A stretch of 64,000 nt of DNA, taken from IMG/VR virus record IMGVR_UViG_3300025006_000001; one strand, 5' to 3'. The notes beneath the pieces were generated by a model. That model saw only the letters and a list, made by a program, of their open reading frames with translations, ran no database searches and was not told the DNA's origin. The translations under genes were made by a program, and so were the position numbers. This DNA is from a virus. Position 1 is the first letter of the stretch, and each line of letters opens with the position of its first letter. This document shows positions 59,776-59,986 of the stretch, one piece after another.

Positions 59776-59850
59776 AATTAAAATTATCGTTAGTAGCGTT
59801 TCGATAATTTGCAGGTTTTAGAAGTTTGTGTTTAGATAACAATACATTCT

Positions 59851-59934
59851 ATGAGGAATTAGTATCGAAAGATTTGCAGGTTCAAGTCCTGCCTCGTCTA
59901 TATAGACGAGTGGCGGAATGGTAAACGCGCTAGT
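59851..59934 (+). ncRNA. Circularly permuted tRNA-Leu(GAG) gene: 3' half, TAT linker, then 5' half
   Basis: 3' half: ATGAGGA(loop)-ATTAG-TATCGAAAGATTT(long variable arm)-GCAGG-TTCAAGT-CCTGC-CTCGTCT-A. 5' half: AGACGAG-TG-GCGG-AATGGTAAA-CGC-G-CTAGT. The 7/7 acceptor pairing and the class II D arm resemble E. coli tRNA-Leu. Confidence 0.6.
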
Positions 59935-59986
59935 AAAAAATGTGTTATCACTTTTAACAAATTTCTATTTAAATCTAAGGCTACAT

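What the first reader, a model, noticed from the sequence alone, without database searches (positions are those of the whole stretch)
59835..59949. Circularly permuted tRNA-Leu(GAG) gene with complementary leader and trailer
The region 59851-59900 encodes a complete tRNA 3' half:
- anticodon loop ATGAGGA (U33, GAG, G37);
- stem strand ATTAG;
- class II variable arm with an ATC-GAAA-GAT hairpin;
- canonical T arm GCAGG-TTCAAGT-CCTGC;
- acceptor strand CTCGTCT;
- discriminator A.

After a 3-nt linker (TAT) comes the matching 5' half at 59904-59934. It has acceptor AGACGAG (7/7 complementary), the D arm TG-GCGG-AATGGTAAA-CGC typical of bacterial tRNA-Leu, and the anticodon-stem strand CTAGT, which pairs with ATTAG. 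The gene order is therefore 3' half then 5' half, broken at or next to position 31/32. No CCA is encoded.

The flanks are complementary. Leader GATAAC (59835-59840) and ACATT (59844-59848) pair with trailer AATGT (59939-59943) and GTTATC (59944-59949). That gives 11 bp with a 3-nt bulge closing the open anticodon loop.

This is the topology of permuted tRNA genes known from the red alga Cyanidioschyzon merolae, and it is related to the split tRNAs of Nanoarchaeum. I am not aware of it being described in a phage. Maturation would need either RNA ligation (RtcB or Rnl type) or a non-covalent two-piece tRNA clamped by the extra helix.
Basis: partly seen in the sequence, partly recalled or inferred. 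Interest (0 to 1): 0.9.

Follow-up and report, generated by a model that had tools for sequence, protein, structure and literature searches.

The report
Phage Y RNA with tRNA-like core
The "permuted tRNA-Leu" sequence is real, but it is best read as one of three phage genes for Y RNAs, small RNAs with a built-in tRNA look-alike that partner the Ro60/Rsr protein this phage encodes nearby; that class has been known in bacteria and some phages since 2014.

Summary
Joining 59904-59934 to 59851-59900 gives a sequence ARAGORN calls tRNA-Leu(GAG); the native order gives nothing.

The interpretation as a translational tRNA gene needing ligation is not supported. T arm, closed acceptor hairpin, then D arm, clamped by a 5'/3' stem, is the defining topology of YrlA-type Y RNAs.

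- **Paralogues.** Two more such elements lie in the same RNA cluster (57840-57997, 58088-58216). They share the 5' motif UACAUUC but have short, long-looped acceptor hairpins and no anticodon loop.
- **Partner protein.** The same phage encodes a Ro60/Rsr orthologue 7.8 kb downstream on the same strand, just outside the window. Its AF2 model matches only Ro60 structures.
- **Relatives.** In other phages, such elements with the same helix-plus-TAC(A/T)T module lie next to Rsr genes. A covariance model built only from those relatives ranks two of the window elements, including the reported one, as the top two hits.
- **Extent.** The element is longer than reported: 59819-59967, with an extra 10-bp outer stem.

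It scores below Rfam's YrlA threshold, so I file it as a divergent new member of a known kind. [quoted passage not shown]

The parts
59819..59967 (+). W2: full YrlA-like Y RNA gene (the reported element, extended by an outer stem)
   Evidence: MFE fold of 59817-59969 keeps the outer stem, second stem, T arm and closed acceptor; z = -4.0. CM R1, built from other phages only, gives 43.1 bits, E 2.6e-9. Rfam YrlA 26.6 bits.
59819..59828 (+). W2 outer stem, 5' strand TAGAAGTTTG. It contains AGAAG, a degenerate counterpart of the GNCGAAN0-1G Rsr-site motif.
   Evidence: Pairs 10/10 (one G-U) with 59958-59967 (sequence). Intermediate motif forms AAAGAATGC and TAAGAATGC occur at the same relative position in related phage loci; the AAAGAATGC locus L153 has Rsr in the held flank.
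59958..59967 (+). W2 outer stem, 3' strand CAAATTTCTA
59835..59840 (+). W2 second stem (H1), 5' strand GATAAC, lying 2 nt upstream of the motif
   Evidence: Pairs with GTTATC 59944-59949. The equivalent helix is present and co-varies in 19 instances (own flank mean 7.4 bp vs 5.4 bp for other instances' flanks; 0 of 20000 permutations).
59944..59949 (+). W2 second stem (H1), 3' strand GTTATC
59843..59849 (+). Conserved 5' motif TACATTC (UACAUUC), shared by W1, W2 and W3 and related to GG(N)TTACAT(T) / GGATACTTC in Rsr-adjacent elements of other phages. Candidate protein-contact site (inferred).
59851..59857 (+). Anticodon-loop-like 7-mer ATGAGGA. It lies in the 5' side of an internal loop and is not conserved in paralogues or relatives.
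59858..59862 (+). Anticodon-stem-like helix, 3'-half strand ATTAG (pairs with CTAGT 59930-59934)
59863..59875 (+). V region with ATC-GAAA-GAT hairpin, ending in U48 (potential Levitt partner of A15)
   Evidence: the V stem-loop is a YrlA feature (PMC4201824)
59876..59892 (+). T arm GCAGG-TTCAAGT-CCTGC
59893..59910 (+). Closed acceptor-like hairpin: CTCGTCT, loop A+TAT, AGACGAG (7 bp). Predicted RNase P site between 59903 and 59904 (inferred by analogy).
   Evidence: In the family alignment all 7 pairs show compensatory changes and 99% of cells are paired (pairing was a selection criterion). RNase P/CCA precedent in PMC4201824.
59911..59929 (+). D arm of tRNA-Leu type (TG-GCG-GAATGGTAAA-CGC-G)
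59930..59934 (+). Anticodon-stem-like helix, 5'-half strand CTAGT
58088..58216 (+). W1: paralogous YrlA-like element. Outer stem CCCGT/ACGGG; H1 TAAATAATC 58098-58106 / GATTATTTA 58193-58201; motif 58107-58113; T arm 58126-58142; 5-bp acceptor hairpin with 11-nt loop 58143-58163; D arm 58164-58182.
   Evidence: Rfam YrlA 29 bits, E 0.004. CM R1 52.5 bits, E 6e-12, the best hit in the window. Fold z = -2.6.
57840..57997 (+). W3: paralogous element. Perfect 12-bp outer stem AAGAATTTAATA 57840-57851 / TATTAAATTCTT 57986-57997; H1 TCCAAA 57861-57866 / TTTGGA 57969-57974; motif 57868-57874; T arm 57892-57908; 6-bp acceptor hairpin with 23-nt loop 57909-57943; Ser/Tyr-type D arm 57944-57962.
   Evidence: CM R1 21 bits, E 0.005. 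Fold z = -2.2.

Best explanation
The element (59819-59967, + strand) is a gene for a YrlA-type Y RNA, not a tRNA used in decoding.

**Architecture.** The transcript's two ends pair into a two-part stem: the outer stem 59819-28/59958-67 and the second stem 59835-40/59944-49. The middle folds into a tRNA-like module. Because the stem emerges where the anticodon arm would be, the module is necessarily encoded in the order V region, T arm, closed acceptor-like hairpin, D arm.

**Context.** It is one of three paralogous elements in a cluster of tRNA-like genes. The phage encodes the partner protein Ro60/Rsr 7.8 kb downstream on the same strand, at window-equivalent 67748-69328, outside the window.

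**Shown here:** the topology, the stems, the paralogues, the Rsr gene, and the recurrence of the same architecture next to Rsr genes in other phages.

**Inferred:**
1. The stem with its AGAAG and UACAUUC motifs binds the phage Rsr.
2. The tRNA-like module stabilises the RNA and/or recruits a tRNA-binding or RNA-degrading host factor. The precedents are the Rsr-Y RNA-PNPase complexes of Deinococcus, Salmonella and Thermus phage phiLo.
3. This copy has a full 7-bp acceptor helix plus a discriminator A. It is therefore likely cut by RNase P between 59903 and 59904 and given a CCA end, leaving a two-piece RNA held together by the stems, as in M. smegmatis YrlA.
4. The ends of the RNAs may be set by processing of the flanking tRNA-shaped genes. 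W3 starts 3 nt after one CCA end and stops 6 nt before the next gene.
For: - **Rfam.** The only Rfam family that hits this element, and a second one at 58103-58211, is YrlA, although below threshold.
- **Paralogues.** A structural scan finds three modules with T arm, closed acceptor and D arm in that order in the window. All are on the + strand in the same 2.2-kb cluster, and each is preceded by TACATTC.
- **Rsr gene.** Contigs 100% identical to the window carry a 526-aa protein downstream.
  - It matches Pfam vWA_Ro60 at 2e-15.
  - Its best PDB sequence match is phage phiLo Ro60, E 7e-10.
  - Its AF2 model (pLDDT 80) has its top 13 Foldseek PDB hits all in Ro60/Rsr structures, TM 0.60-0.74 over about 500 or more columns.
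- **Relatives.** Loci around Rsr homologues in other phages (L129, L131, L132, L133, L138, L140-L145, L055) carry the same kind of module near Rsr, mostly just upstream. L131:9317-9426 scores 45.7 bits on Rfam YrlA.
- **Closing helix.** The helix just 5' of the motif co-varies with its own 3' flank (0 of 20000 permutations).
- **Independent model.** A covariance model built from 16 such elements of other phages, with no window sequence, ranks W1 (52.5 bits) and W2 (43.1 bits) as the two best hits in 64 kb.
- **Independent pattern scan.** Scanning IMG/VR for TACATT, a T loop and a Leu-type D arm returned 16 loci. Fourteen have closed acceptor hairpins (at least 5 of 7 pairs; the other two have 4), and 10 have an Rsr homologue within the few kb held. 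Their 5' arms grade from canonical GNCGAAUGC through AAAGAAUGC/UAAGAAUGC to the window's UUAGAAGU/UAAGAAUU.
- **Literature.** YrlA is defined by this architecture. It was reported in 22 phages, and a 7-bp-acceptor YrlA is cut by RNase P and CCA-tailed (PMC4201824). Phage phiLo Ro60 binds two phage-encoded Y-like RNAs and host PNPase (PMC12135203).
Against: - The Rfam YrlA score (26.6 bits) is far below the gathering score of 69. None of the phage elements examined reaches it.
- The canonical GNCGAAN0-1G motif is only partly present: UUAGAAG, 4 of 6 defined positions.
- The Rsr gene is 7.8 kb away with about 20 small ORFs between. That is beyond the 4-kb criterion of the original survey, and it lies outside the window.
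- Tandem tRNA genes can score 40-55 bits on my model (L143:11979). The model score alone therefore does not prove membership. The argument rests on topology, flanks and context together.
- The two closest Rsr relatives with held contigs (L125, L127) show no such element in the DNA available.
- No expression, binding or processing data exist for this phage.
- This copy is unusually tRNA-like: class II V hairpin, A73, and a 7-mer that reads as a Leu anticodon loop.
Confidence: 0.8

Rival explanations
1. A true circularly permuted tRNA-Leu(GAG) gene. The transcript is circularised or ligated across the leader/trailer helix, then opened at the acceptor end by RNase P and a 3' nuclease, and CCA is added, giving a covalently continuous decoding tRNA.
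For: The rotated sequence is a good tRNA-Leu(GAG) with U33, G37, A73 and a class II V arm. The flanks pair. A relative's Rsr neighbourhood (L127) encodes an RNA ligase domain, PF09414.
Against: - The anticodon-loop-like 7-mer is not conserved in the paralogues W1 and W3 or in Leu-type relatives.
- The junction is a 9-nt/5-nt internal loop, not a bulge-helix-bulge.
- No ligase or splicing endonuclease is found among the 30 largest window ORFs.
- The flanking stems and motif are shared with elements that cannot be tRNAs, having 5- or 6-bp acceptors closed by 11- or 23-nt loops.
- The YrlA class explains every feature without ligation.
Confidence: 0.04
2. A two-piece, non-covalent tRNA-Leu mimic that is functionally charged. 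[quoted passage not shown] LeuRS does not read the anticodon (my background knowledge, not tested here). The charged RNA then acts on translation factors, on LeuRS, or as part of the Rsr particle.
For: It has a 7-bp acceptor, discriminator A, a Leu-type D arm with A14, A15 and G18G19, and U48. M. smegmatis YrlA is cleaved and CCA-tailed, and its aminoacylation was raised as a possibility (PMC4201824). Leu-type D arms recur in many phage elements of this class.
Against: No evidence of charging exists for any Y RNA. The other two paralogues lack a cleavable acceptor. This reading is an elaboration of the main explanation, not a replacement for it.
Confidence: 0.08
3. A non-functional rearrangement scar: the remnant of a tandem duplication of a tRNA-Leu gene, in which the outer halves were deleted.
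For: A tandem duplication followed by deletions would automatically give complementary acceptor strands. Homing endonuclease genes (HNH at 59008-59628) lie in the cluster. All available copies of this phage are identical, so selection cannot be read from them.
Against: A scar would not acquire two nested flanking stems plus the UACAUUC motif shared with two paralogues and with Rsr-adjacent elements of many other phages.
Confidence: 0.04
4. tRNA-like punctuation: the modules serve only as RNase P / RNase Z recognition sites that cut a long transcript of the RNA cluster, with no role as Rsr partners.
For: The cluster is a compact array of tRNA-shaped units. W3 starts 3 nt after one CCA end and stops 6 nt before the next unit.
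Against: Closed acceptor hairpins with long loops (W1, W3) are poor RNase P substrates; S. Typhimurium YrlA, which lacks a 7-bp acceptor stem, is not cleaved (PMC4201824). This rival also does not explain the conserved stems and motif, or the tight linkage of such modules to Rsr genes elsewhere.
Confidence: 0.04

Closest known systems
YrlA (Y RNA-like A; Rfam RF02553) of Salmonella, Mycobacterium smegmatis and mycobacteriophages (PMC4201824)
   Same: - A 5'/3' stem plus a tRNA-like module in the order V, T arm, closed acceptor-like hairpin, D arm.
- A possible Levitt pair (A15-U48).
- Encoded on the same strand as, and upstream of, a Ro60/Rsr gene.
- Several Y RNAs per genome.
- The 7-bp acceptor variant of M. 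smegmatis is cut by RNase P and CCA-tailed, which this copy could also undergo.
   Different: - It scores 26.6 bits against a gathering score of 69.
- The GNCGAAN0-1G motif is degenerate (UUAGAAG).
- It lies 7.8 kb from rsr rather than within 4 kb.
- It sits inside a tRNA-like gene cluster of an AT-rich, roughly 145-kb uncultured phage unrelated to mycobacteriophages.
- It has a Leu-type D arm, a class II-like V hairpin and an anticodon-loop-like 7-mer.
- A conserved UACAUUC motif follows the second stem.
Yrl1/Yrl2 of Thermus phage phiLo with phage Ro60 (PMC12135203; PDB 9KOP, 9L5Y)
   Same: Phage-encoded Ro60 plus phage-encoded Y-like RNAs upstream of it. phiLo Ro60 is the best sequence match in the PDB to this phage's Rsr and among its best structural matches.
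   Different: The phiLo RNAs lie upstream of the phiRo60 gene and were identified by a CGAA motif in a large internal bulge. A tRNA-like module is not mentioned in the passages I read. Protein identity is only about 20%.
Circularly permuted tRNA genes of Cyanidioschyzon merolae and some green algae and archaea
   Same: The 3' half is encoded upstream of the 5' half, with a short linker between the acceptor strands and complementary leader and trailer.
   Different: From my background knowledge, not checked here: those are matured through a bulge-helix-bulge junction by the splicing endonuclease and a ligase into decoding tRNAs, and their anticodon loops are conserved. Here there is no bulge-helix-bulge, no such enzymes were found, and paralogues and relatives have no anticodon loop.
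Two-piece (permuted) tmRNA of alpha-proteobacteria and cyanobacteria
   Same: Permuted gene order of a tRNA-like domain, giving a two-piece RNA held by base pairing after processing (my background knowledge).
   Different: No tag reading frame or pseudoknots are present, and ARAGORN finds no tmRNA.

Membership tests
YrlA-type Y RNA (PMC4201824; Rfam RF02553) | tRNA-like module encoded as V region, T arm, closed acceptor-like stem-loop, D arm | tested here: met
   ARAGORN on the rotated sequence; the Rfam YrlA alignment places the T, AS and D arms correctly; structural scan; CM R1.
YrlA-type Y RNA (PMC4201824; Rfam RF02553) | 5' and 3' ends pair into a long stem that carries the Ro60/Rsr site | tested here: met
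   Two nested stems, 59819-28/59958-67 and 59835-40/59944-49, are kept in the MFE fold, z = -4.0. The equivalent helix co-varies across 19 instances.
YrlA-type Y RNA (PMC4201824; Rfam RF02553) | GNCGAAN0-1G motif near the 5' end | tested here: inconclusive
   W2 has UUAGAAG (4 of 6 defined positions) in the 5' strand of the outer stem. W3 has UAAGAAU. W1 has none on the 5' side. Related phage elements grade from GACGAAUG/GGCGAAUGC to AAAGAAUGC/UAAGAAUGC at the same relative position.
YrlA-type Y RNA (PMC4201824; Rfam RF02553) | Score at or above Rfam's gathering threshold (69 bits) | tested here: not met
   26.6 bits (W2) and 29 bits (W1). The best phage relative scores 45.7 bits. No YrlA match reached the gathering score in 9 further Rsr-containing phage loci.
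YrlA-type Y RNA (PMC4201824; Rfam RF02553) | Encoded within about 4 kb of, and on the same strand as, a Ro60/Rsr gene | tested here: not met
   Same strand and same order, but 7.8 kb upstream (Rsr at window-equivalent 67748-69328). In relatives L131, L129, L055 and L148 the elements lie within about 0.7 kb of Rsr.
YrlA-type Y RNA (PMC4201824; Rfam RF02553) | The genome encodes a Ro60/Rsr orthologue | tested here: met
   Pfam vWA_Ro60 2e-15; PDB sequence matches to phage and Xenopus Ro60; the AF2 model's top 13 Foldseek hits are all Ro60/Rsr.
YrlA-type Y RNA (PMC4201824; Rfam RF02553) | The RNA is bound by Rsr in vivo and carries tRNA-type modifications | not testable with these tools
   Needs immunoprecipitation or EMSA, and modification mapping.
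Circularly permuted tRNA gene (Cyanidioschyzon type) | 3' half upstream of 5' half, and the rotated sequence is a canonical tRNA | tested here: met
Circularly permuted tRNA gene (Cyanidioschyzon type) | Leader and trailer form a bulge-helix-bulge junction for the splicing endonuclease | tested here: not met
   Read from the sequence: between ATTAG/CTAGT and ACATT/AATGT there is an asymmetric internal loop, 9 nt (CUAUGAGGA) on the 5' side and 5 nt (AAAAA) on the 3' side. That is not two 3-nt bulges separated by 4 bp.
Circularly permuted tRNA gene (Cyanidioschyzon type) | Anticodon loop under selection (conserved U33-anticodon-R37 in homologues) | tested here: not met
   Paralogues W1 and W3 and the Leu-type relatives show no consistent 7-nt loop with U33 at that position.
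Circularly permuted tRNA gene (Cyanidioschyzon type) | RNA ligase and splicing endonuclease available | tested here: inconclusive
   None is found among the 30 largest ORFs of the window. The window is under half of a roughly 145-kb genome, and the host is unknown.
Two-piece tmRNA | Tag-peptide reading frame next to the tRNA-like domain | tested here: not met
   ARAGORN tmRNA search negative; no Rfam tmRNA hit.

The most novel reading that the evidence does not exclude
This copy is a clamp-held, two-piece tRNA-Leu mimic. RNase P opens the 4-nt acceptor loop, CCA is added, and LeuRS, which ignores the anticodon (my background knowledge), leucylates it. The phage Rsr particle would then carry or sequester an aminoacylated tRNA look-alike, for example to engage EF-Tu, ribosomes, or a tRNA-sensing host defence. 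The recurrence of Leu-type D arms in this class across many phages would then reflect selection for LeuRS recognition.
Probability: 0.07. Interest if true: 0.8.

Novelty: new member of a known kind. Interest (0 to 1): 0.35.

Why it matters
**Annotation.** Sequences that look like permuted tRNA genes in phages should first be checked against the Y RNA (YrlA) class and for a Ro60/Rsr gene in the genome. Here that gene sits just outside the window.

**Gap in Rfam.** The comparative work suggests the class is much wider in uncultured phages than the 22 mostly mycobacteriophage cases on record. Rfam's YrlA model at its gathering score misses every phage element I examined. These elements share a recognisable module: a stem, then TAC(A/T)T, with a graded GNCGAAUGC-like motif upstream. 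That module could seed a better model.

**Biology.** An abundant, roughly 145-kb AT-rich phage carries three Y RNA paralogues interleaved with six aberrant tRNA-Phe-like genes and its own Ro60. This suggests a phage-run RNA surveillance or decay module that could be tested directly.

Tried and rejected
- **No close relatives in GenBank phages.**
  - Megablast of 57000-64000 gave no match.
  - blastn of the extended element gave no match.
  - tblastn of the PolA found nothing above 25% identity.
- **SNF2 helicase search.** The search for related loci in IMG/VR confirmed no relative.
- **First pattern scan.** GGTTCAAGTCC...TGGCGGAAT returned 118 loci. I first dismissed them all as tandem tRNA genes. 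That filter used the wrong T-stem offset. Re-analysis showed that many of them are permuted Leu-type modules, some with Rsr adjacent.
- **TACATTC enrichment.** The bare motif is not enriched in the window as a whole: 12 matches against 10.6 expected. Its significance comes only from its position next to the three elements and their relatives.
- **Promoter reading of the motif.** The sigma-70 scan calls no + strand promoter at the three sites. The co-varying helix lies upstream of the motif, so it must be inside the RNA. I rejected this reading, but not rigorously.
- **duplexfold of flanks.** The z-scores were noisy in AT-rich sequence. I replaced this with the own-versus-cross helix test.
- **Rfam at gathering threshold on 9 Rsr loci.** It found tRNAs only.
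- **Limits of my covariance model.** It also scores tandem tRNA pairs at 40-55 bits, so it is not a stand-alone classifier.
- **Conserved Leu anticodon.** I considered whether Leu-type relatives conserve one. Two chance-level cases (AAG, UAG) were seen, against others with none, so I rejected the idea.
- **Cluster look-up of the Rsr protein.** It gave no organism or host name.
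Full report
**1. The observation**

ARAGORN finds no tRNA there in the native order, and Rfam's tRNA model does not hit it. When 59904-59934 is placed in front of 59851-59900, ARAGORN calls a clean tRNA-Leu(GAG). It has a 7-bp acceptor stem, a 3-bp Leu-type D stem, a 5-bp anticodon stem, a short class II variable hairpin and a canonical T arm.

Six loci from assemblies of several samples are 100% identical to the window across this region, so a local mis-join is unlikely.

**2. What else is there**

A permissive Rfam scan of 56500-64000 gave one notable result. 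The only family hitting this element is YrlA (Y RNA-like, RF02553): 26.6 bits, E 0.02, against a gathering score of 69. A second YrlA hit lies at 58103-58211 (29 bits, E 0.004).

Reading that region and running a structural scan for "T arm, then a closed hairpin, then a D arm" shows three such modules. All are on the + strand within 2.2 kb.

| Element | Extent | Acceptor hairpin | D arm |
|---|---|---|---|
| W3 | 57840-57997 | 6 bp, 23-nt loop | Ser/Tyr-type |
| W1 | 58088-58216 | 5 bp, 11-nt loop | ordinary class I |
| W2 (reported) | 59819-59967 | 7 bp, 4-nt loop | Leu-type |

All three carry TACATTC at the same place, at most 2 nt after a helix strand whose partner lies 3' of the D arm:
- W1: TAAATAATC / GATTATTTA
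- W2: GATAAC / GTTATC
- W3: TCCAAA / TTTGGA

Each also has a further outer stem:
- W3: a perfect 12 bp, AAGAATTTAATA / TATTAAATTCTT
- W2: 10 bp, TAGAAGTTTG / CAAATTTCTA
- W1: CCCGT / ACGGG

MFE folds of the extended sequences keep both stems. The z-scores are -4.0 (W2), -2.2 (W3) and -2.6 (W1). The reported element is therefore about 35 nt longer than described. W1 and W3 cannot be tRNAs of any kind, because they have no anticodon-loop equivalent and their acceptor hairpins are short with long loops.

**3. The partner protein**

The window is a phage. It encodes a tail-protein-like ORF, a family A DNA polymerase with a UDG-like N-terminus, an intein-containing DnaB, RecA, an SbcCD-like protein, a SNF2 helicase and HNH/LAGLIDADG endonucleases. 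It has no close relative in GenBank phages.

Looking up two small window proteins by exact sequence returned contigs of about 145 kb that are 100% identical to the window and extend beyond it. On the same strand, 7.8 kb downstream of W2 at window-equivalent 67748-69328, lies a 526-aa protein. The evidence that it is a Ro60/Rsr orthologue:
- Pfam vWA_Ro60, 2e-15.
- Its best PDB sequence matches are the Ro60 of Thermus phage phiLo (E 7e-10, residues 23-406) and Xenopus Ro60.
- Its AlphaFold model (pLDDT 80, pTM 0.75) has its 13 best Foldseek PDB hits all in Ro60/Rsr structures: phage, Deinococcus, Xenopus and human. TM-scores are 0.60-0.74 over about 500-560 columns.

**4. Comparison with relatives**

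Nine homologues of this Rsr, at 32-53% identity, were found, and their contigs were fetched. More distant phage Rsr loci came from IMG/VR.

- **L131.** This locus is syntenic with the window (PolA, SNF2, tRNA cluster, Rsr). The 1.1-kb gap directly upstream of Rsr holds ordinary tRNAs plus at least two permuted modules. One scores 45.7 bits on Rfam YrlA (E 5e-7).
- **L129.** It shows the same arrangement.
- **Across loci.** In L129, L131, L132, L133, L138 (four copies), L140-L145 and L055, the modules sit close to Rsr, mostly just upstream. They are preceded by a helix strand ending in ..GG followed at once by TTACAT(T) or TACTTC.
- **Covariation of the closing helix.** The helix next to the motif pairs with its own 3' flank far better than with the flanks of other instances. 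Across 19 instances the mean longest helix is 7.4 bp against 5.4 bp, with 0 of 20000 permutations as good.
- **Independent model.** A covariance model built only from 16 elements of other phages ranks W1 (52.5 bits, E 6e-12) and W2 (43.1 bits, E 2.6e-9) as the two best hits in the 64-kb window. W3 is fourth, at 21 bits.
  - Caveat: tandem tRNA genes with matching acceptor strands also score 40-55 bits. The score shows topology, not function.
- **Closed acceptor helix.** In the family alignment all 7 pairs show compensatory changes and 99% of cells are paired. Pairing was a criterion when I collected the seeds, so this is descriptive rather than an independent test.
- **Independent pattern scan.** The pattern TACATT ... 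GGTTCRANTCC ... TGGCGRAAT contains no information about Rsr. It returned 16 IMG/VR loci. Fourteen have closed acceptor hairpins (at least 5 of 7 pairs; the other two have 4), and 10 have an Rsr homologue within the few kb held.
- **Graded 5' motif.** In these loci the 5' arm upstream of TACATT reads GACGAATG or GGCGAATGC, the published GNCGAAN0-1G Rsr-site motif. In AT-rich phages it reads AAAGAATGC or TAAGAATGC. The window's W3 (TAAGAATTT) and W2 (TTAGAAGTT) sit at the end of this series, in the 5' strand of the outer stem.

**5. What it is**

These features are those of YrlA-type Y RNAs (PMC4201824). That class has a stem formed by the two ends that carries the Ro60 site, and a tRNA-like domain drawn as V, T, AS (acceptor-like stem-loop) and D arms. 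The genes lie next to rsr on the same strand.

The paper reports the class in 254 bacteria and 22 phages. It also shows that the M. smegmatis YrlA, which has a 7-bp acceptor stem, is cleaved by RNase P in vitro and is cleaved and CCA-tailed in vivo. Thermus phage phiLo Ro60 binds two phage-encoded Y-like RNAs and assembles with host PNPase (PMC12135203).

The "permuted" gene order is thus an inherent property of the class. The Rsr-binding stem replaces the anticodon arm, so the RNA's ends fall where the anticodon loop would be.

By direct reading, W2 also keeps tRNA tertiary-pair potential. It has A14, A15 and G18G19 in the D loop, and U48 before the T stem. W3 has G15 with C48, which is the Levitt-pair covariation noted for YrlA.

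**6. Why not a decoding, ligated tRNA**

- The 7-mer AUGAGGA is the only anticodon-like feature. Its equivalents in W1, W3 and the Leu-type relatives are not anticodon loops.
- The junction is a 9-nt/5-nt internal loop rather than a bulge-helix-bulge.
- No RNA ligase, RtcB or splicing endonuclease appears among the 30 largest window ORFs. The window is less than half of the genome, and one relative has an RNA ligase domain near its Rsr.
- A rearrangement scar would not have two nested stems and a motif shared with paralogues and with distant phages.

**7. Mechanism, with status of each step**

| Status | Step |
|---|---|
| Shown | Architecture; three paralogues; an Rsr gene in the same genome; recurrence of the architecture beside Rsr in other phages |
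| Inferred from the family | The RNAs bind the phage Rsr through the stem and its AGAAG and UACAUUC motifs; the tRNA-like module stabilises the RNA and/or recruits a host factor such as PNPase |
| Inferred for W2 specifically | RNase P cuts between 59903 and 59904, the 3' UAU is trimmed and CCA is added, giving a two-piece RNA clamped by about 27 bp of stems |
| Speculative | Leucylation of that form |

The compact array also suggests that RNA ends are set by tRNA-type processing. The order is F2 (57762-57837), W3 (57840-57997), F3 (58004-58082), W1 (58088-58216).

**8. Membership and novelty**

W2 meets the architectural definition of YrlA and has the partner gene. It fails three formal criteria:
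- the Rfam gathering score (26.6 against 69 bits);
- strict GNCGAAN0-1G (4 of 6 positions);
- the 4-kb distance to rsr.

I file it as a divergent new member of a known kind. It works like YrlA and is very probably homologous through the graded series of phage elements. The wider result is that Rfam's threshold misses every phage element examined. That result may be more useful than this single locus.

**9. Verdict**

The tRNA-gene, ligation and novelty claims do not.
- Interest is 0.35.
- Confidence in the Y RNA explanation is 0.8.

Noticed in passing
window 57589-60063 (57589-57664, 57762-57837, 58004-58082, 58756-58832, 58838-58913, 59606-59682, 59987-60063): Seven tRNA-shaped genes all have a GAA (Phe) anticodon in a (U/G)UGAA(A/C)(A/C) loop, discriminator A and a genome-encoded CCA. 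Only the first has a normal T loop. The other six keep co-varying acceptor and anticodon stems and the D stem, but have non-canonical T loops, and some lack G18G19. ARAGORN misses them; Rfam tRNA scores are 28-47 bits. They interleave with the three Y RNA-like elements. Their function is unexplained (decoys, Rsr substrates, or processing punctuation?).
   Followed up: partly
L122:11158-16351 (window-equivalent about 64135-69328); also L125:4411-8260 and L127:2035-7156: A ClpB-like double AAA+ ATPase (665-1037 aa) lies upstream of Rsr, separated from it only by a small ORF (55-131 aa), in this phage and in its two closest Rsr relatives. In this phage it is preceded by a second AAA ATPase and a HicA-like ORF. 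Ribonucleotide reductase follows Rsr, directly or within about 1 kb, in many of the loci. The ClpB-Rsr linkage may be functional.
   Followed up: no
L149:442-560, L150, L154, L157, L160 (IMG/VR loci with Rsr within 1-2 kb): A different permutation of a tRNA-like RNA. The order is T arm, closed 7-bp acceptor, Leu-type D arm, then a complete anticodon stem-loop (GAAGU-CUUGAAA-ACUUC, anticodon UGA). The closing stem (TTTAGCT/AGCTAAA) emerges at the variable-arm position instead of replacing the anticodon arm.
   Followed up: no
L159 (IMG/VR 3300037067_027616), minus strand around 2028: TACATT, then a V hairpin, T arm and acceptor 3' strand followed by an encoded ACCA. Two nt later comes the complementary acceptor 5' strand, a Leu-type D arm and an anticodon arm with CUA (amber-suppressor-like). 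This is either a permuted element with an encoded CCA or an unusual tandem pair.
   Followed up: no
L131:8985-9035 and 9145-9200; L129:6785-6835: Small hairpins carry the same 'helix strand + TTACATT' module but no tRNA-like domain, for example TTAGGTC-TACATTT...GACTTAG. They sit between ordinary tRNA genes upstream of Rsr and may be YrlB-like minimal Y RNAs.
   Followed up: partly
window 59684-59775: A long-range inverted repeat, AGAGAATTCAACAA ... TTGTTGAATTCTC, encloses about 60 nt and is followed by a T run. It lies directly after the tRNA-like gene that ends at 59682. It is either terminator-like or another structured RNA. There is no Rfam hit.
   Followed up: no
window 59008-59628: An ORF with an HNH-like Cys/His motif (read by eye; Pfam gives only a weak HTH_50 match) lies inside the RNA gene cluster. 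Its 3' end overlaps the start of the tRNA-like gene at 59606.
   Followed up: no
window 42434-44980 and 40233-41204: A DnaB-like helicase ORF is interrupted by a LAGLIDADG domain (intein-like), and there is a separate free-standing LAGLIDADG ORF. Relatives also carry inteins in ribonucleotide reductase near Rsr.
   Followed up: no
window 57857-57863: W3 carries a second motif variant, TACTTCC, 11 nt upstream of its TACATTC. TACTTC is the variant used by the GC-rich phage elements (L140-L145).
   Followed up: no
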